Below are positions 2,501 through 57,117 of a stretch of 64,000 bases of DNA, piece by piece. The notes under the pieces were generated by a model. That model did no database searches. It worked only from the letters and a program-made list of their open reading frames with translations, and had not been told where the DNA came from. The DNA comes from a virus: IMG/VR virus record IMGVR_UViG_3300002131_000090, positions 82,633-146,632 of that record, one strand, 5' to 3'. Positions within the stretch are counted from its first letter, which is position 1. Each line of letters opens with the position of its first letter. The translations under genes and the position numbers were made by a program.

Positions 2501-4021
2501 TTATTTTCCAATGCTTTTATATACATTGTACAACTCAGGAAACGTATTTCTAAAAGATGTGTTTCTTCTAAAATCGTGTTGATCTAAATACTTTACAAAA
2601 TTCAATTCGTTTGTCTTTACTTCTTCGGTTGAGATAGTACTTCTATCTAAGAATATTTTTAAATTGCGTTCTGCTTTTTCAATTTCAAAATCATAAAATC
2701 CAACAAAATTATCAGTGTCAATATTTTCTTTCATAAAGTCTATTGCGCTCTGAATGTACGTAGCATACTCAACAGGCAGCACATGTATATTTTGCCACTC
2801 TGGTTTACGCATAATTGGAATATCAAACCATATGCGCTGACGAGGATGTATCTCATAATCGGGATGAGTATTGTAAGGATCTACAATAGGAATATGTTTT
2901 ATACCTTGGTTTGATCTGCTGTATTGATTTCTAAGATTTAAAATATTTTGTAGATATTCTTTAAACTTTGGTATGCTTAATGCATTAAATGTATTAATAA
3001 ATGTTACAGTTGTATTTGCAGTTTCATCTAGCACTCTTTGTACATTCTTTTGCATAAGATTGTAATTCAATCCTGTACGTATGTATTCTGCTTGTTCTCC
3101 AACACTGTCTACACTTACAAACAACGCAAAATTCTTTAATGCCATGTTTACATACCAGTTGTTTCCAGACCCAGGATTAAATCGTTTCTTATCTTCCCAT
3201 ATCTGAATTTGTTCTAGTTTTTTAAGTTTTTCTATAAACTTATCCATAAGTTCCTCACGCGGAGGACACATATTTGTAGTAACACTAAGTTCTAACCAAG
3301 TGTTTGGATTTTCGTAAATGTAATCTAATACTTTAAATGTGTTTACATCCATCAACGGTTCGCCGCCGGTAATTCTAAACACTTCTAATTTTGTGTACAA
3401 AGTAGGCCACCAACGCCAGAACGCATCAAGATAAGGATTGTCACTTTGTTTAGTTTTTAAAGGCATTAACCCTTGTGCTTCTAATGCAGCAATATTGTTA
3501 TGTCCGATTGTATTTCCGTATGTATCAAGAATCTTAAAATCGCCATATTGCTTTATTTCATCTTCCCAAGCTGTACTAAGATGAGGACTGCAATACATAC
3601 ATTTTAAATTACACGCTTGGTTAAAGTTGACTTCCATGTATCGAGGAATGATATTTCCTGTATCAAGTGCATCAATAATATCGCCGCGACTGTTTTGCGC
3701 CCAGTATTCTCCAGATCTATAAATTCTATCACTACGATTTTTGTTATCTTCAATCTTCCAACAATAACTGCAACCGTCTGGTCTTACACCAGCAAGCATT
3801 TGTTTTCTTTCTGCTTTCTTTTGCTGTGTATTATGCAATGCACTTGGGTTTGTTTTAATTTCTGCTAAGTCTACTTTGTGCAACGGCGGATGATAACAAC
3901 TATGTGTCATTCCATTAGTTAAGTGCATTGACACTTGACTCCATTTAGCATAACACATAGTTGGACTAATTCTTTTTAATTGAGTTTCTGCAATATCTGC
4001 AGAATTTTTATAAATGCTCAC
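2501..4021 (-). CDS. radical SAM enzyme with N-terminal twitch/SPASM-like domain
   Basis: CNLKCMYC (CxxxCxxC), ITGGEPL, N-terminal CYAKW...HSCYH...CSYC auxiliary cluster ligands. Confidence 0.85.
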   Translation of the reverse strand: MSIYKNSADIAETQLKRISPTMCYAKWSQVSMHLTNGMTHSCYHPPLHKVDLAEIKTNPSALHNTQQKKAERKQMLAGVRPDGCSYCWKIEDNKNRSDRIYRSGEYWAQNSRGDIIDALDTGNIIPRYMEVNFNQACNLKCMYCSPHLSTAWEDEIKQYGDFKILDTYGNTIGHNNIAALEAQGLMPLKTKQSDNPYLDAFWRWWPTLYTKLEVFRITGGEPLMDVNTFKVLDYIYENPNTWLELSVTTNMCPPREELMDKFIEKLKKLEQIQIWEDKKRFNPGSGNNWYVNMALKNFALFVSVDSVGEQAEYIRTGLNYNLMQKNVQRVLDETANTTVTFINTFNALSIPKFKEYLQNILNLRNQYSRSNQGIKHIPIVDPYNTHPDYEIHPRQRIWFDIPIMRKPEWQNIHVLPVEYATYIQSAIDFMKENIDTDNFVGFYDFEIEKAERNLKIFLDRSTISTEEVKTNELNFVKYLDQHDFRRNTSFRNTFPELYNVYKSIGK

Positions 4022-52514: not shown

Positions 52515-53528
52515 TTGTTTAAAAAAGCAGCAGTATTTACTGACATCCATTACGGTATGAAAGGTAATAGTCGTGTTCACAATCAAGATTGTGAAGAATT
52601 TGTTGATTGGTTTATTAAAAACGCAAAAGATAACGGTTGTGAAACTGGTATCTTTTGTGGAGACTGGAATCATAACCGTAATGCATTGAATTTGACTACT
52701 ATGGATTCAGGGTTACGTGCATTAGAAAAACTAGGTGCTGCATTTGAACAGTTTTATATGTTTGCAGGCAATCACGATTTGTATTATAAAGACAAACGTG
52801 ATGTAAAAAGTACTGAATTTGCAAAACATATTCCTGGTATTACAGTAATCAACGAAACATTTGTTAAAGACGATGTTGCACTAGTACCTTGGTTAGTCGG
52901 CGATGAGTGGAAAAGCATTCCTAAGATAAAAGCAAAGTATCTTTTTGGACATTTTGAACTTCCTAGCTTCTATATGAACGCTATGGTTCAAATGCCCGAT
53001 CACGGAGAACTTAAAAGTGAACATTTTGTTAATCAAGAGTACGTGTTTAGTGGTCACTTCCATAAAAGACAGGTTTTAGGTAAGATTCATTACATAGGAA
53101 ATGCTTTTCCACATAACTATGCTGATGCATGGGACGATGCACGTGGTATGATGATACTTGATAAAGAAAATAACAAAGATCCAGAGTACATTAACTGGAT
53201 TGATTGTCCTAAGTATCGTACAACAACACTATCAAAGCTAATTGATGACAAAGATACACTTGTTAAAGACAAAATGTATCTAAGAGTTATAATCGATCTA
53301 CCTATTAGCTATGAAGAAGCTACTTTTGTTAAAGAATCGTTTATTCAAGAGTATAATTGCAGAGAGATTACACTGATTCCTCAGAAGAACATCGAAGAAT
53401 ATAATTCTGCTGTAGACATTGGACAGTTTGAGAGTGTAGATCAAATTGTTAGTAATGAAATTATGTCTATCGACAGTGAAAATTATAACAAATCACTTTT
53501 ATTAAACATTTATAGCGGATTACAATGA
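52515..53528 (+). CDS. gp47: recombination nuclease subunit gp47 (Mre11/SbcD-like)
   Basis: Metallophosphoesterase motifs TDIH, GDWNH, GNHD, GHF, SGHFH; TTG start with GGAG RBS. Confidence 0.9.
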   Translation: MFKKAAVFTDIHYGMKGNSRVHNQDCEEFVDWFIKNAKDNGCETGIFCGDWNHNRNALNLTTMDSGLRALEKLGAAFEQFYMFAGNHDLYYKDKRDVKSTEFAKHIPGITVINETFVKDDVALVPWLVGDEWKSIPKIKAKYLFGHFELPSFYMNAMVQMPDHGELKSEHFVNQEYVFSGHFHKRQVLGKIHYIGNAFPHNYADAWDDARGMMILDKENNKDPEYINWIDCPKYRTTTLSKLIDDKDTLVKDKMYLRVIIDLPISYEEATFVKESFIQEYNCREITLIPQKNIEEYNSAVDIGQFESVDQIVSNEIMSIDSENYNKSLLLNIYSGLQ

Positions 53529-55303
53529 TCAAAATTCAAGACTTAACAGTTAAAAACTTTATGAGTGTGGGCAATGTTACTCAGGCCGTTAACTTTAATC
53601 GAGAACAGCTTACTTTGGTGCTTGGAGAAAACTTAGACCAAGGCGGAGACGATAGCGGATCACGCAACGGTACTGGTAAAACTACAATCATCAACGGTTT
53701 AAGCTATGCATTGTACGGTCAAGCATTAACTAACATTAAAAGAAACAATTTGATTAACAAAACTAACAGCAAAGGCATGTTGGTTACGTTAAACTTTGAA
53801 AAAGACGGCAACAGTTATCGAATTGAACGTGGAAGATCACCAAACGTACTTAAATTTTATGTAAATGACACAGAACAAGTTGACGATTTAGACGATCACA
53901 GCCAAGGCGACAGTAGAGAAACACAAAAAGCAATCAATACACTGTTAAACATGAGTCACGATATGTTTAAACATATTGTAGCACTTAATACTTACACAGA
54001 ACCGTTTCTTAGTATGCGTACCAATGAACAACGAGCAATTATTGAACAGCTTCTTGGAATTACCATACTTAGTGAGAAAGCAGAACTGCTTAAAGAGCAA
54101 GTTCGTATTACAAAAGATACTATCACAGAAGAAACTCTAAAGATTAATGCTATTCAAGCAAGTAACGAGAAGATTAAACAAAGTATTGACACACTTATTG
54201 GTAGACAACGTGCTTGGGAAAGTAAGCGTAGACAAGATTGTAACAACCTTGCAGCTGGTATTGAAGAATTAGAACGAGTAGACATTGACAAAGAGCTTGA
54301 TGCACATGAAAAATTATCAAATTGGACTGAACATAATAATGCTATTAATGCTCTTAGAAAAGAATTAAGTACATTAGAGCCAGCACTGCAACGTGCAGAC
54401 AAAAGTGTTGAAAAACTTGTTAAAGATATTGCAGAACTTAATGATGCAATGTGTTATACATGTGGTCAAGCACTGCACGAAGATAAAAAAGCAGAAATTG
54501 CCGACTGTAAGTCTAAAGAACTTGCTGATGCAAAGACATATGCTCAAGAAGTTAATGCAAAATGTTCAGAAGTTATACTAGCACTAGCTGAAATTGGCGA
54601 TATTAACGGCAAGCCTAATACATTTTACGAAAATGCTAAAGAAGCATACGAACATCGTAACAATGTAGATAATCTTCGTGTAGCATTAGATAATAAACAA
54701 AAGGAAGATGACCCTTATCAATTACAAGTTGATGATTTAAACAACACAGCTATACAAAAGGTAAACTGGGAAATAATAAATCAGCTAACGTCACTGAAAG
54801 AGCATCAAGATTTCTTGTTGAAACTGTTAACAAACAAAGATTCATTTATTAGAAAAAAGATTATTGATCAAAACTTAGCATATCTAAACAACAGACTTAC
54901 ATATTATCTTGATAAGTTAGGCTTACCTCATCTAGTTGTGTTCCAAAATGACTTAAACGTTGAAATTACTCAGCTTGGTCAAGATTTAGACTTTGATAAC
55001 TTGTCACGTGGTGAAAGAAATAGACTCATCCTTGGGTTGAGTTTTGCTTTCCGTGATGTTTGGGAAAATTTATATCAAAATATCAACTTGTTGTTTATTG
55101 ACGAATTGATTGATAGTGGTATGGATGCGTCTGGTGTTGAGAATTCGTTGAGTGTTCTTAAAAAGATGGGTCGCGAACGTAATAAAAATATTTTTCTTAT
55201 TAGTCACAAAGACGAACTGATTGGTAGAGTTAACAATGTTCTTAAAGTTATTAAAGAAAACGGTTTTACTAGCTACGAAAACGATGTTGACATTGTAGAA
55301 TAA
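53525..55303 (+). CDS. gp46: recombination ATPase subunit gp46 (Rad50/SbcC-like)
   Basis: KNFMS, Walker A NGTGKTT, coiled coil with CYTC zinc hook, LSRGE signature, LLFIDE Walker B, ISH. Confidence 0.92.
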   Translation: MIKIQDLTVKNFMSVGNVTQAVNFNREQLTLVLGENLDQGGDDSGSRNGTGKTTIINGLSYALYGQALTNIKRNNLINKTNSKGMLVTLNFEKDGNSYRIERGRSPNVLKFYVNDTEQVDDLDDHSQGDSRETQKAINTLLNMSHDMFKHIVALNTYTEPFLSMRTNEQRAIIEQLLGITILSEKAELLKEQVRITKDTITEETLKINAIQASNEKIKQSIDTLIGRQRAWESKRRQDCNNLAAGIEELERVDIDKELDAHEKLSNWTEHNNAINALRKELSTLEPALQRADKSVEKLVKDIAELNDAMCYTCGQALHEDKKAEIADCKSKELADAKTYAQEVNAKCSEVILALAEIGDINGKPNTFYENAKEAYEHRNNVDNLRVALDNKQKEDDPYQLQVDDLNNTAIQKVNWEIINQLTSLKEHQDFLLKLLTNKDSFIRKKIIDQNLAYLNNRLTYYLDKLGLPHLVVFQNDLNVEITQLGQDLDFDNLSRGERNRLILGLSFAFRDVWENLYQNINLLFIDELIDSGMDASGVENSLSVLKKMGRERNKNIFLISHKDELIGRVNNVLKVIKENGFTSYENDVDIVE

Positions 55304-55318
55304 AGAGCATATAGTTAA

Positions 55319-55567
55319 ATGATAAACAACGATATACATGATCAACTTGTAAAAGAATATTTACAATATTTTAAGGCAAACGAGGCATTTATAGCAAGTC
55401 CTTCGGAGTTAAAACGTAGGACTGCTCGAAAACACTTGAGTAACATTAGGCAACTAGCAAAAATTAGGCGTAAAGAAATTATTGATCACCATGTTGATAA
55501 GTCAAGATGGAATAAGGCAGGACTAGATCCAAAAGTGGCACGTGAGGCTAAAACTAAAAATAACTAA
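55319..55567 (+). CDS. small basic helical protein (Hc1-like, possible nucleic-acid binding)
   Basis: ANEAF...RRTARKHLSNIRQLAKIRRKEI resembles the Hc1-type helical hairpin. Confidence 0.4.
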   Translation: MINNDIHDQLVKEYLQYFKANEAFIASPSELKRRTARKHLSNIRQLAKIRRKEIIDHHVDKSRWNKAGLDPKVAREAKTKNN

Positions 55568-55570
55568 TGT

Positions 55571-56002
55571 ATGAATTGGACATACAAAGGTAAAGAAGTT
55601 ACAGAAATCTCTGAGGAGTTTGAAGGCTTTGTATATCTAATAACCAATTTAACAAATAACCGCAAGTACGTAGGCAAAAAGTTAGCAAGATTTAAAACTA
55701 CCAAACCACCACTCAAAGGCAAAAAAAATAAACGTAGAGGCTACAAAGAAAGCGATTGGCGAGACTATTGGGGATCGTCGGATAAACTTAATGAAGATGT
55801 AGCAACACTAGGCACTGTTAAATTTACAAGAGAAATAATTTATTTTTGTAGAAGTAGAGCTGAACTAAGTTACCTTGAGGCAAGAGAACAATTCGAACGT
55901 AGAGTCCTAGAGACAGATGAGTACTACAATGGTATCATTAACGTTCGTGTAGGCGGTAGTAAAATATTAATTGAAAATTTAAAGGCACAACAGGCTATAT
56001 AA
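55571..56002 (+). CDS. stand-alone GIY-YIG nuclease-domain protein
   Basis: GFVYLITNLTNNRKYVGKK (GIY...YIG), YWGSS, conserved E (LEAREQ), YYN; no C-terminal DNA-binding repeats. Confidence 0.75.
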   Translation: MNWTYKGKEVTEISEEFEGFVYLITNLTNNRKYVGKKLARFKTTKPPLKGKKNKRRGYKESDWRDYWGSSDKLNEDVATLGTVKFTREIIYFCRSRAELSYLEAREQFERRVLETDEYYNGIINVRVGGSKILIENLKAQQAI

Positions 56003-56480
56003 GGGACACTGAAGAAACTCCAAGAGTCAGCCGAGGTAATGCTCGTAGCCGGTGGTGTGGAGAGTCCCCGTGCAGAAGCATACGTAGGCTTTAAAAGATT
56101 TGGGCTCTGAGAAAAAGCAACCCGCAGGCAAGTGATTTCGCTTAATAAGGATTAACTGCCTTCCGTTGATATGTCGAATCGAGAATAGGGGGATACCGGT
56201 CAACCGCCTCCACTTAATGTTAAGTCAAGATTACATTAATCAGTTTAATGTAACGTTGAGATAACATTAAAATTTCTTTTATTAAGATGATTGAAGCAAC
56301 TCGAATGATGTTATTCAGTTATGTTCGCCCTTGCGCGGGCGAATTATGACTTCACAATCTGAATGATATTAAAAGCATATGCCGTTAGCATCTGCCTTAG
56401 TAGTATTGTAATCACAAATACTTAATACGAAGTAAATGTATTGAGCGATAGCGATAATACAGTTGAACGTAGTTCGACTT
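56003..56480 (+). ncRNA. candidate large structured non-coding RNA/element of unknown family
   Basis: No ORF in the track; 50% G+C over 56001-56210 (105/210 counted); more than 10 helices, G-U wobbles favouring the + strand, 8-bp loop-to-distal pairing. Confidence 0.65.
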
Positions 56481-56487
56481 AAAAGAA

Positions 56488-56495
56488 CATAAATA
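56488..56495 (+). promoter_or_regulatory. T4-like late promoter (CATAAATA)
   Basis: TAAATA core upstream of the AAGGA RBS of 56524. Confidence 0.5.
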
Positions 56496-56523
56496 ATAAA
56501 AACAAGTTTAAGGATAGTTCAGA

Positions 56524-57117
56524 ATGAAAATACATGATCTTAATGAGAATATCGAAATTGATGAATTTCTAGGTTTACCTGCATTGACTAAAAAAGGTAG
56601 AATGATTCAACAAGGAAATAAAGCAGTCAAGGGTGTACTAAAAGATGAACTACGTCAGATGGAAGTTGAATTGGCCATCTGGATGAAACAAAGCGGAATA
56701 GCGCAACTAACTGCTGATGACTTACAATCATATCTTGATCAAAAAGGATTAGGCGAAATAGGTCAGCCGGTTATAGCTGCATTACCTGCTAAAGCAGATG
56801 CTAAAGCAGCTAAAATTAAATCAGCAATTGCAGCAAAACAAGCAGCAATGGCACGAGGTGGAATCAAAACTCCAACTGTTAACAACCCTGCACCTACTAT
56901 GGCAACTGTAATGTCAAGTATGTATTCTGAGAACATTGAAGAAGCTCAAGGGACTAGTGCGTTATCTAAAAGAGAAGTACGTAATATATTGAGTACTGTT
57001 TTACAAACAGCATATAAAAAATCAGCTGGATTTAGTAAAAGTTCATTTGCAAATCAACTTGTTGCAAAAACAAAACCACCTGCTTTTAAATCTTCAAGAC
57101 CTAAAGCTAAAGCATAA
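56524..57117 (+). CDS. hypothetical late protein (possible internal head protein)
   Basis: Lys/Ala-rich 197 aa; acidic N-terminus with L/I-x-E sites; late-promoter motif. Confidence 0.6.
   Translation: MKIHDLNENIEIDEFLGLPALTKKGRMIQQGNKAVKGVLKDELRQMEVELAIWMKQSGIAQLTADDLQSYLDQKGLGEIGQPVIAALPAKADAKAAKIKSAIAAKQAAMARGGIKTPTVNNPAPTMATVMSSMYSENIEEAQGTSALSKREVRNILSTVLQTAYKKSAGFSKSSFANQLVAKTKPPAFKSSRPKAKA

What the first reader, a model, noticed from the sequence alone, without database searches (positions are those of the whole stretch)
55571..56480. Minimal GIY-YIG nuclease directly followed by a large pseudoknotted non-coding RNA: candidate nuclease-RNA system
Seen: in an otherwise gene-packed window, the only long gap (about 520 nt) starts at the base right after the GIY-YIG stop codon and is 50% G+C over its first 210 nt. 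Pairings visible by eye: GGGAC 56003-07/GTCCC 56064-68; CTCCA 56018-22/TGGAG 56058-62; CGAG 56032-35/CTCG 56042-45; AGGCA 56126-30/TGCCT 56157-61, whose loop CTTAATAA 56141-48 is complementary to TTATTAAG 56279-86 (pseudoknot); TCGAG 56179-83/CTCGA 56300-04; GGGGG 56188-92/CCTCC 56207-11 with an inner CGG/CCG hairpin; a long hairpin 56214-56270; a 12-bp stem 56307-18/56359-70 with three G-U pairs enclosing TTCGCCC/GGGCGAA. The G-U pairs work only on the + strand, arguing for an RNA co-transcribed with the nuclease. Known: GIY-YIG homing endonucleases such as I-TevI get specificity from C-terminal DNA-binding modules, which this 143-aa protein lacks; HEARO/omegaRNA-IscB shows nuclease ORFs can pair with large structured RNAs. 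Inference: the RNA may be a scaffold, guide or substrate for the nuclease, or a ribozyme-like RNA. It does not match tmRNA, RNase P or group I/II intron cores that I can recognise.
Basis: partly seen in the sequence, partly recalled or inferred. Interest (0 to 1): 0.9.

Follow-up and report, generated by a model that had tools for sequence, protein, structure and literature searches.

The report
Twin-box structured RNA beside phage nuclease
The gene-free stretch behind a small nuclease gene of this uncultured marine T4-like phage encodes a real, knotted RNA of about 475 bases. It belongs to an uncatalogued phage RNA family that carries one short word twice, it does not depend on the nuclease, and its job is unknown.

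Summary
The 521-nt gap 56003-56523 is the longest ORF-free stretch of the window. It is G+C-rich at its 5' end and encodes a + strand structured RNA (about 56003-56480).

In 41 relatives, 95.7% of proposed pairs form. Of 90 pairs, 27 show compensatory changes, against 2-6 in slid controls. Two of its helices, including the 12-bp stem, are not conserved.

Rfam, ARAGORN and a nucleotide search of cultured phages find nothing for the RNA.

The RNA belongs to a large family in uncultured marine T4-like phages. The window carries a minority 5' domain, most relatives carry another, and one carries the published Polynucleobacter-1 motif.

All members share a 3' domain with two boxes, A-CUC-N7-G and A-UCU-N7-R, 55-65 nt apart. 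Their 7-nt cores are almost always identical although at least 16 different cores exist. No complementary partner was found in the RNA or its flanks.

The nuclease-RNA system reading is not supported. The GIY-YIG gene occurs without the RNA in five cultured phages, and the RNA occurs without the gene in four contigs (three contexts).

Function is unknown. My best guess is a scaffold that presents a duplicated specificity word to an external partner. This scan has already found the same family on other genomes.

The parts
55571..56002 (+). Catalytic-domain-only GIY-YIG gene (143 aa): a neighbour of the RNA, not shown to be its partner.
   Evidence: PF19835, E 1e-33; phrog_447. The motifs FVY, Y.GKK, REI, SY.EA.EQF and YYNG are conserved in 154 homologues, all 140-149 aa.
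56003..56480 (+). Twin-box structured RNA, type A variant, whole element as conserved.
   Evidence: nhmmer finds about 95 near-full copies, 40 of them unique, starting 0-38 nt after the GIY stop. 95.7% of pairs form and 27 of 90 covary.
56003..56068 (+). 5' three-helix module: H1 56003-07/64-68, H2 56020-22/58-60, H3 56032-35/42-45.
   Evidence: H1 covaries (CG, UA and GC at one pair; AU/GC at others). The inner part of the module also occurs joined to type B cores in L003, L020 and L007.
56075..56124 (+). Hairpins H5 (56075-79/88-92) and H6 (56101-04/121-24).
   Evidence: Both have compensatory changes.
56126..56161 (+). Hairpin H7 (56126-30/157-61). Its loop 56141-48 forms pseudoknot PK1 with 56279-86.
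   Evidence: PK1 is 98.8% paired; 2 pairs change on both sides and 2 more on one side.
56182..56277 (+). Junction stem S (56182-85/274-77) enclosing H10 (56188-92/207-11) and the variable hairpin 56212-72.
   Evidence: S covaries (AGAA/UUCU to AGAG/CUCU). H10 changes A-U/G-C. The variable hairpin is 17-60 nt in relatives.
56198..56202 (+). GGUCA in the H10 loop: 5' strand of pseudoknot PK3, pairing with UGACU at 56347-51.
   Evidence: Invariant within type A. Across the family, GUCA/UGAC extends to 6 bp or more with covarying flanks in 128 of 161 RNAs.
56288..56321 (+). Hairpin T1 (56288-91/318-21), which carries box 1 in its loop.
   Evidence: 96.7% paired, one pair changes on both sides. Equivalent stems: UCUCG/CGAGA in type B (seen by eye in the sequences, not counted) and ACUGU/ACAGU in L370.
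56299..56312 (+). Box 1: A-CUC-GAAUGAU-G-UU.
   Evidence: Twin-box statistics.
56324..56343 (+). Hairpin Hh (UUCGCCC/GGGCGAA).
   Evidence: 99% paired. Replaced by GGAACC/GGUUCC in type B and GAGCCC/GGGCUC in L068.
56347..56351 (+). UGACU: 3' strand of PK3, six nt before box 2.
56357..56370 (+). Box 2: A-UCU-GAAUGAU-A-UU.
   Evidence: It is the best covarying partner of every variable box 1 position.
56375..56395 (+). Hairpin Hp (GCAUAUGC/GCAUCUGC).
   Evidence: 96% paired, 2 pairs change on both sides.
56438..56460 (+). Hairpin E1: closing stem, tandem G-A, then G-C and C-G pairs closing the GAUA tetraloop.
   Evidence: The closing stem and the loop-closing pair covary (UA 26, CG 15). Conserved in all types.
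56462..56478 (+). Terminal hairpin E2, the likely 3' end.
   Evidence: 100% paired, 4 of 7 pairs change on both sides. Conservation stops after it.
56488..56495 (+). CATAAATA, a T4-late-promoter-like box before orf197 (ATG at 56524). Outside the RNA.
   Evidence: A TAAATA box is conserved after E2 in the alignments. Read as a promoter by analogy with T4 TATAAATA; this is an inference.

Best explanation
The gap encodes a stand-alone, highly structured non-coding RNA of about 475 nt on the + strand. It is transcribed with, or just behind, the GIY-YIG gene and probably ends at hairpin E2.

It is a member, with a minority type A 5' domain, of an uncatalogued family found in uncultured marine T4-like phages. 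The family has an exchangeable 5' domain and a common 3' domain.

Shown: the fold, at least two pseudoknots (PK1, PK3), the strand, the family, and independence from the nuclease gene.

Inferred: the conserved scaffold exists to display two copies of one short word. Box 1 sits in a hairpin loop and box 2 sits just after PK3. I think these are read by an external partner, either one nucleic acid strand that can pair with both boxes or the two halves of a dimeric protein. On this reading the word acts as a fast-evolving specificity determinant. The GIY-YIG protein is a neighbouring gene with its own role.
For: Real RNA:
- 95.7% of 3638 cells pair; 27 of 90 pairs have compensatory changes against 2-6 in slid controls; 0 of 500 shuffles reach any observed measure.
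- G-U pairs fit the + strand only.
- No ORF of 40 aa or more lies on the + strand, and the variable hairpin changes length by non-multiples of 3.

Family:
- 40 unique type A copies.
- 39 of 39 gp46-anchored loci with room carry the RNA: 37 type B and 2 type A.
- L068 carries Polynucleobacter-1 (107.8 bits) as its 5' domain, followed by the common 3' domain.

Twin boxes:
- 96 of 97 unique RNAs have both boxes, and the cores are identical in 93 of 96.
- A pattern that left four box positions free returned identical boxes in 93 of 94 hits, with at least 16 different cores.
- On trees built without the box columns there are at least 7 and at least 5 changes. All 8 supported independent contrasts go the same way in both boxes.
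- The best covarying partner of each variable box 1 position is the same position in box 2, and there is no third column.
- All fixed differences between the boxes are transitions (CUC/UCU, G/A). One G/U-containing strand could therefore pair with both; this is an inference.

Independence from GIY.
Against:
- No partner was found. No complement lies in the RNA, in the flanks of 166 loci, or in intergenic DNA of the 146-kb genome fragment.
- Neither GIY nor the small basic ORF upstream tracks the boxes.
- The 8 independent contrasts are few.
- The CUC/UCU contrast was written into the search pattern, so the pattern cannot show its invariance. It is seen directly only in the alignments.
- In this lineage the RNA always abuts the GIY stop codon, so a cis role for that mRNA is not excluded.
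Confidence: 0.55

Rival explanations
1. RNA-guided or RNA-scaffolded nuclease. The catalytic-domain-only GIY-YIG protein gets its target specificity from the RNA, with the twin boxes or the variable hairpin acting as guide.
For: - The protein has no DNA-binding module; all 154 homologues are 140-149 aa.
- In this lineage the RNA starts 0-38 nt after the stop codon in every locus.
- The boxes look like a programmable word.
- Weinberg et al. noted that Polynucleobacter-1 RNAs lie mostly downstream of one gene family.
Against: - The same protein family lacks the RNA in Melnitz, phiN3, S-SRM01, B3 and P-HM1.
- The RNA follows other ORFs in L370, L366/L393 and L443.
- No GIY column covaries with the boxes beyond clade signal.
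- The adjacency is a single syntenic event.
Confidence: 0.07
2. A self-processing or host-processed RNA. The two identical boxes are two cleavage (and perhaps ligation) sites, so the 55-65-nt segment between them is excised and each product keeps one intact box.
For: - Identical words at two sites a fixed distance apart (55-65 nt), each next to a conserved helix (T1 or PK3).
- A large conserved scaffold with pseudoknots, as ribozymes have.
Against: - No match to any ribozyme or intron model, even at E up to 10.
- No internal guide sequence covaries with the boxes.
- No read data.
Confidence: 0.12
3. A cis-acting untranslated region: either a 3' element that stabilises or terminates the GIY-YIG message, or a leader that regulates the downstream late gene.
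For: - It abuts the stop codon with no terminator in between.
- It ends in a hairpin followed by a late-promoter-like box.
- Polynucleobacter-1 was provisionally classed as possibly cis-regulatory.
Against: - About 475 nt with several pseudoknots is far more than such roles need.
- The downstream gene differs between loci: orf197 relatives occur in a minority only.
- The same RNA follows unrelated ORFs.
- The terminal hairpin E2 and a late-promoter-like box lie between the RNA and the next gene.
Confidence: 0.12
4. A template with realignment repeats. A polymerase copies the segment between the boxes again and again, and the nascent strand re-pairs at the second box, as with telomerase RNA or the rolling-circle templates of defence reverse transcriptases.
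For: Direct repeats that must stay identical are what such templates need, and ordinary RNA folding does not explain direct-repeat covariation.
Against: - No reverse transcriptase or other candidate polymerase was seen among the ORFs I examined around these loci, but no RT family was searched for specifically.
- The exact complement of box 1 would mismatch box 2 at the fixed flank differences (derived).
- The unit length varies from 55 to 65 nt.
Confidence: 0.04
5. The boxes act as DNA, for example as twin binding or cleavage sites in competition between phages or in replication, and the RNA fold is secondary.
For: - Two identical direct repeats next to nuclease and recombination genes.
- Word changes between close relatives would fit an escape from cleavage.
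Against: - The surrounding helices covary as RNA, with strand-specific G-U pairs.
- The boxes sit at fixed places in the RNA fold.
- The family also occurs away from nuclease genes.
Confidence: 0.05

Closest known systems
Polynucleobacter-1 RNA motif (Rfam RF01718; Weinberg et al. 2010, PMC2864571)
   Same: A relative (L068) carries a full-length, high-scoring copy (107.8 bits, E 1e-22) at the place of the window's 5' domain, followed by the same 3' domain. The original description noted a marine/freshwater origin, a position downstream of one gene family with a cyanophage homologue, and a 3' half that is not always detected.
   Different: The window's own 5' domain gives no hit to RF01718 even at E up to 10. 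The published motif is 141 positions and does not include the twin boxes, PK3, E1 or E2.
GOLLD, ROOL and OLE: large ornate orphan RNAs, several carried by phages or prophages
   Same: Hundreds of nucleotides, many helices and pseudoknots, carried by phages, function unknown.
   Different: No sequence or structure match. No evidence of multimer formation. None of those is described, to my knowledge, as having a duplicated covarying word.
P1/P7 c4 antisense RNA with its a1b1 and a2b2 target repeats (recalled from the literature; the c4 and c4-a1b1 motifs are listed in PMC2864571)
   Same: Short direct repeats in one phage transcript differ between related phages and must change together, because both pair with one antisense element. 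This is a precedent for how twin boxes could encode specificity.
   Different: There the antisense element lies between the repeats. Here no complementary element is found in the RNA, its flanks or the genome fragment.
IscB/HEARO omega RNA and TnpB reRNA nuclease-RNA systems
   Same: A structured RNA lies directly next to a small nuclease ORF.
   Different: No HEARO hit. The nuclease is GIY-YIG, not RuvC/HNH. The gene and the RNA occur apart. There are no transposon ends.
T4 Seg-type free-standing GIY-YIG endonucleases (Pfam PF19835)
   Same: The protein matches the full SegE catalytic-domain profile and sits in different genomic contexts in different phages.
   Different: It has no C-terminal DNA-binding region (140-149 aa in all homologues). 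It is fixed rather than sporadic in this lineage (77 of 77).

Membership tests
Twin-box phage RNA family (uncatalogued; defined in this scan) | Two boxes, A-CUC-N7 and A-UCU-N7, 55-65 nt apart with identical N7. | tested here: met
   Window 56299-312 and 56357-370, both with GAAUGAU.
Twin-box phage RNA family (uncatalogued; defined in this scan) | GUCA/UGAC pseudoknot whose 3' strand lies just 5' of box 2. | tested here: met
   56198-202 with 56347-351; 128 of 161 family members have 6 bp or more.
Twin-box phage RNA family (uncatalogued; defined in this scan) | 3' hairpins E1 (GNRA loop, tandem G-A) and E2. | tested here: met
Polynucleobacter-1 RNA (RF01718) | Covariance-model score at or above the gathering score of 37 bits. 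| tested here: not met
   No hit in the window at gathering threshold or at E up to 10. Met only by relative L068.
Group I / group II introns | Match to the intron core models and flanking exons of a split gene. | tested here: not met
   No Rfam hit at E up to 10. The upstream ORF ends in a conserved stop codon, and the downstream gene has its own start and varies between loci.
tmRNA / tRNA-like | Acceptor/T-arm and a tag reading frame. | tested here: not met
   ARAGORN finds nothing in the window or the whole 146-kb genome; no Rfam tmRNA hit.
HEARO / omega RNA nuclease partner | HEARO model match and an IscB/TnpB-type ORF, with obligate linkage. | tested here: not met
   No hit. The ORF is GIY-YIG. 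Linkage is broken in both directions.
GIY-YIG nuclease superfamily (the ORF) | GIY and YIG motifs plus conserved Arg, Glu and Asn. | tested here: met
   PF19835, E 1e-33. FVY, Y.GKK, REI, SY.EA and YYNG are at least 97% conserved in 154 homologues. Catalytic activity was not tested.
Homing endonuclease (mobile, sporadic) | Sporadic presence or absence among close relatives. | tested here: not met
   Present in 77 of 77 gp46-anchored loci with room, although its context differs in distant phages.

The most novel reading that the evidence does not exclude
The twin boxes are a programmable address. The scaffold holds two copies of one 7-13-nt word, so that the RNA engages a variable external nucleic acid, or a dimeric reader, of the host or of a rival phage. 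Different words would then define specificity or immunity groups among co-occurring phages. This would be a way of working not yet described for large structured RNAs.
Probability: 0.2. Interest if true: 0.85.

Novelty: new variant of a known kind. Interest (0 to 1): 0.6.

Why it matters
Large, intricately folded RNAs with no assigned function are rare, and they have repeatedly led to new biochemistry. This one is common in an abundant, uncultured group of marine T4-like phages.

It shows exchange of whole 5' domains on a common 3' domain. It also carries a duplicated word whose two copies change together, which ordinary RNA folding does not explain.

It extends a published orphan motif (Polynucleobacter-1) into a much larger RNA. 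For the specific claim under test, it removes a tempting but unsupported reading: an RNA-guided GIY-YIG nuclease.

Tried and rejected
- Rfam at gathering threshold on the whole window, and at E up to 10 on the locus: nothing meaningful.
- Rfam on 35 related loci: only L068 hits.
- ARAGORN on the window and the whole genome: nothing.
- Nucleotide search of cultured phages with type A and type B queries: only the GIY gene matches.
- Melnitz's two-piece tmRNA and glutamine riboswitch (PMC9004378) are at another locus and are unrelated.
- My first pseudoknot PK2 (56292-96/56350-54): no covariation and not conserved in type B. Dropped in favour of PK3.
- Small ORFs starting in the boxes: frames differ between relatives (reasoned from the alignment).
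- Search for a partner of the boxes: inside the RNA; as rc(N7)+GGG in the flanks of 166 loci; in the own genome. All negative.
- Association of box word with GIY or orf82 residues: only clade-level signal, and one orf82 subtype occurs with four different words.
- The Melnitz twin-box pattern hit lies antisense inside a coding gene, so I read it as chance.
- The catalogue of candidate viral structured RNAs (PMC10690425) does not mention this locus type in its text. Its tables were not searched.

Full report
**What is there**

The window comes from a 146.6-kb IMG/VR virus record, estimated 41% complete. Gene order around the finding:
- gp47-like (52515-53528)
- gp46-like (53525-55303)
- a small basic ORF, orf82 (55319-55567)
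- the GIY-YIG ORF (55571-56002)
- a 521-nt gap
- orf197 (56524-57117)
- baseplate genes on the other strand

The nearest cultured gp46 is under 50% identical. The only nucleotide match among cultured phages is the GIY gene of Methylophilales phage Melnitz. The phage is therefore an uncultured marine T4-like myovirus.

The gap is the longest stretch of the window without an ORF of 100 aa or more. Its first 210 nt are 50.5% G+C, against 34.5% for the window. It folds better than shuffled sequence: z = -3.9 on the + strand and -3.2 on the - strand. Rfam finds nothing at gathering thresholds in the whole window and only noise at E up to 10. ARAGORN finds no tRNA or tmRNA.

**Conservation and fold**

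The 80 closest GIY loci in IMG/VR all have the order gp47, gp46, orf82, GIY. A blastn search and then an nhmmer profile of the gap found about 95 near-full copies, 40 of them unique, with mean identity 86%. Each starts 0-38 nt after the GIY stop codon.

I proposed 18 helices and counted them on an alignment of 41 sequences:
- 95.7% of cells pair.
- 27 of 90 pairs change on both sides, against 2-6 when the partners are slid by 1-3 columns.
- No shuffle out of 500 reaches any observed measure.

Supported helices:
- H1 56003-07/64-68
- H5 56075-79/88-92
- H6 56101-04/121-24
- H7 56126-30/157-61
- PK1 56141-48/279-86
- S 56182-85/274-77
- H10 56188-92/207-11
- T1 56288-91/318-21
- Hh 56324-30/337-43
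- Hp 56375-82/388-95
- E1 56438-60
- E2 56462-78

H3 and H9 never vary, apart from rare unpaired cells. Many conserved G-U pairs fix the strand as +.

Together 55% of cells pair and there are no compensatory changes. The long hairpin 56214-70 is an expansion segment that is 17-60 nt long in relatives.

A further pseudoknot, PK3, joins GGUCA in the H10 loop (56198-202) to UGACU (56347-51). It is invariant within type A. Across the family the GUCA/UGAC core extends to 6 bp or more with covarying flanks in 128 of 161 RNAs.

**A wider family with exchangeable 5' domains**

Other loci of the same synteny have a different 5' core of about 300 nt (type B; markers GGAACGAAGC and GGUUGGGAAAGGUCAGAGCCC) but a homologous 3' domain.
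- In a sample anchored on gp46, not on the RNA or the nuclease, GIY is present in 77 of 77 loci with room.
- An RNA of this family is present in 39 of 39 loci with at least 600 nt downstream: 37 type B and 2 type A. The window's form is thus the minority variant.
- Some loci join the first type A module to a type B core (L003, L020).
- One locus, L068, has a full Polynucleobacter-1 motif (RF01718, 107.8 bits) as its 5' domain.

Weinberg et al. (2010) wrote that this motif occurs in marine samples, that its 3' half is not always detected, and that it lies mostly downstream of one gene family with a possible cyanophage homologue. I did not check whether that gene family is the same as the GIY-YIG family here.

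**The twin boxes**

The common 3' domain holds two boxes: A-CUC-N7-G-Y-U in the loop of T1, and A-UCU-N7-R-Y-U six to eight nt after PK3. They lie 55-65 nt apart.
- Of 97 unique RNAs, 96 have both boxes. The 7-nt cores are identical in 93 of those 96, and 11 different box 1 cores occur.
- A pattern that left four box positions free returned identical boxes in 93 of 94 hits and raised the number of cores to at least 16.
- Mutual information shows that the best partner of each variable box 1 position is the same position of box 2. There is no third column.
- On trees built without the box columns the word changes at least 7 times in type A and at least 5 times in type B. All 8 supported independent contrasts go the same way in both boxes; one shows no change.
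- All fixed differences between the two boxes are transitions. A single strand with G or U at those places could therefore pair with either box; this is an inference. The CUC/UCU contrast was part of my search pattern, so only the alignments show its constancy.

No complementary word was found inside the RNA, in the flanks of 166 loci, or in intergenic DNA of the 146-kb genome fragment. The word is not enriched in that genome.

**Is it a nuclease-RNA system?**

The protein is a complete SegE-type catalytic domain with all core motifs conserved. Every one of 154 homologues is 140-149 aa, so the family does lack a DNA-binding module.

The family is widespread: 551 cultured phage records, often mis-named 'NAD synthetase'. 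In Melnitz (after nrdB), phiN3, S-SRM01, B3 and P-HM1 it sits in five other contexts. There the next gene follows within 0-150 nt, so there is no such RNA. The only twin-box pattern hit in Melnitz lies antisense inside a coding gene.

Conversely:
- L370 has a clear type A RNA directly after a 335-aa ORF with no family match.
- L366 and L393 have a type B-like RNA after a 173-aa ORF.
- L443 has one after other ORFs.

No GIY column follows the box word beyond clade signal, and one orf82 subtype occurs with four different words. The constant adjacency in this lineage is therefore one inherited arrangement and is not evidence of partnership.

**Most likely mechanism**

Shown: a stand-alone structured RNA with a conserved, multiply pseudoknotted scaffold.

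Inferred: the scaffold displays a duplicated, fast-changing word to something outside the RNA.

Two readings fit the direct-repeat covariation: base pairing of both boxes with one external strand, or binding by the two halves of a dimeric protein. The P1/P7 c4 system is a precedent for repeats that change together because one antisense element reads both, but no such element was found here. Processing at both boxes, a realignment template, and a DNA-level role remain possible and are scored as rivals. No expression data could be obtained.

**Prior findings of this scan**

The same family was reported before on other genomes as the 'twin-box' RNA, with the same closest known motif and the same doubts about the nuclease. 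I reached the fold, the Polynucleobacter-1 link and the boxes independently and tested the independence claim myself. Another reported expression in a relative; I could not test this.

**Verdict**

The interpretation as an RNA-nuclease system is not supported. The element is a new variant of a partly published but uncatalogued phage RNA family of unknown function, and its twin boxes are its most unusual feature.

Noticed in passing
window 55319-55567: A small basic ORF (82 aa, N-terminal DTHDQL..YL.YF.ANE.FE motif, arginine-rich middle) is conserved between gp46 and the GIY gene in nearly all related loci. It has no Pfam or PHROG match. Its subtypes do not follow the box word.
   Followed up: partly
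window 55571-56002; phage records: This GIY-YIG family (phrog_447) is annotated 'NAD synthetase' in many GenBank and RefSeq phage records, which looks like a propagated mis-annotation.
   Followed up: partly
L159 (Melnitz MZ577097.1 30449-30889): In Melnitz the homologous GIY gene lies directly after the ribonucleotide reductase small-chain gene. As I recall it, T4 endonuclease II (denA) sits at that place. No sequence similarity to solved structures was found.
   Followed up: no
L002 about 3412-3673 and L014 about 3412-3640: In two relatives an extra stretch of about 230-260 nt, which looks like a small ORF, is inserted between the GIY gene and the RNA. The RNA start (AAUCCAACAC...) stays directly after the new stop codon.
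   Followed up: no
L370 5085-6987 (minus strand): A type A twin-box RNA follows a 335-aa ORF with no family match, which is itself preceded by a phage PDDEXK endonuclease gene (PF24608). This is a second case of the RNA lying near a nuclease gene of another fold.
   Followed up: partly
window 56488-56523: A CATAAATA box and an AAGGA ribosome-binding site precede orf197. A TAAATA box follows hairpin E2 in most relatives, whatever gene comes next.
   Followed up: no
window 56299-56440: The segments after box 1 and after box 2 have the same layout (box, A-rich spacer, hairpin, spacer ending in UCACAA). This suggests an old tandem duplication of a unit of about 58 nt.
   Followed up: no
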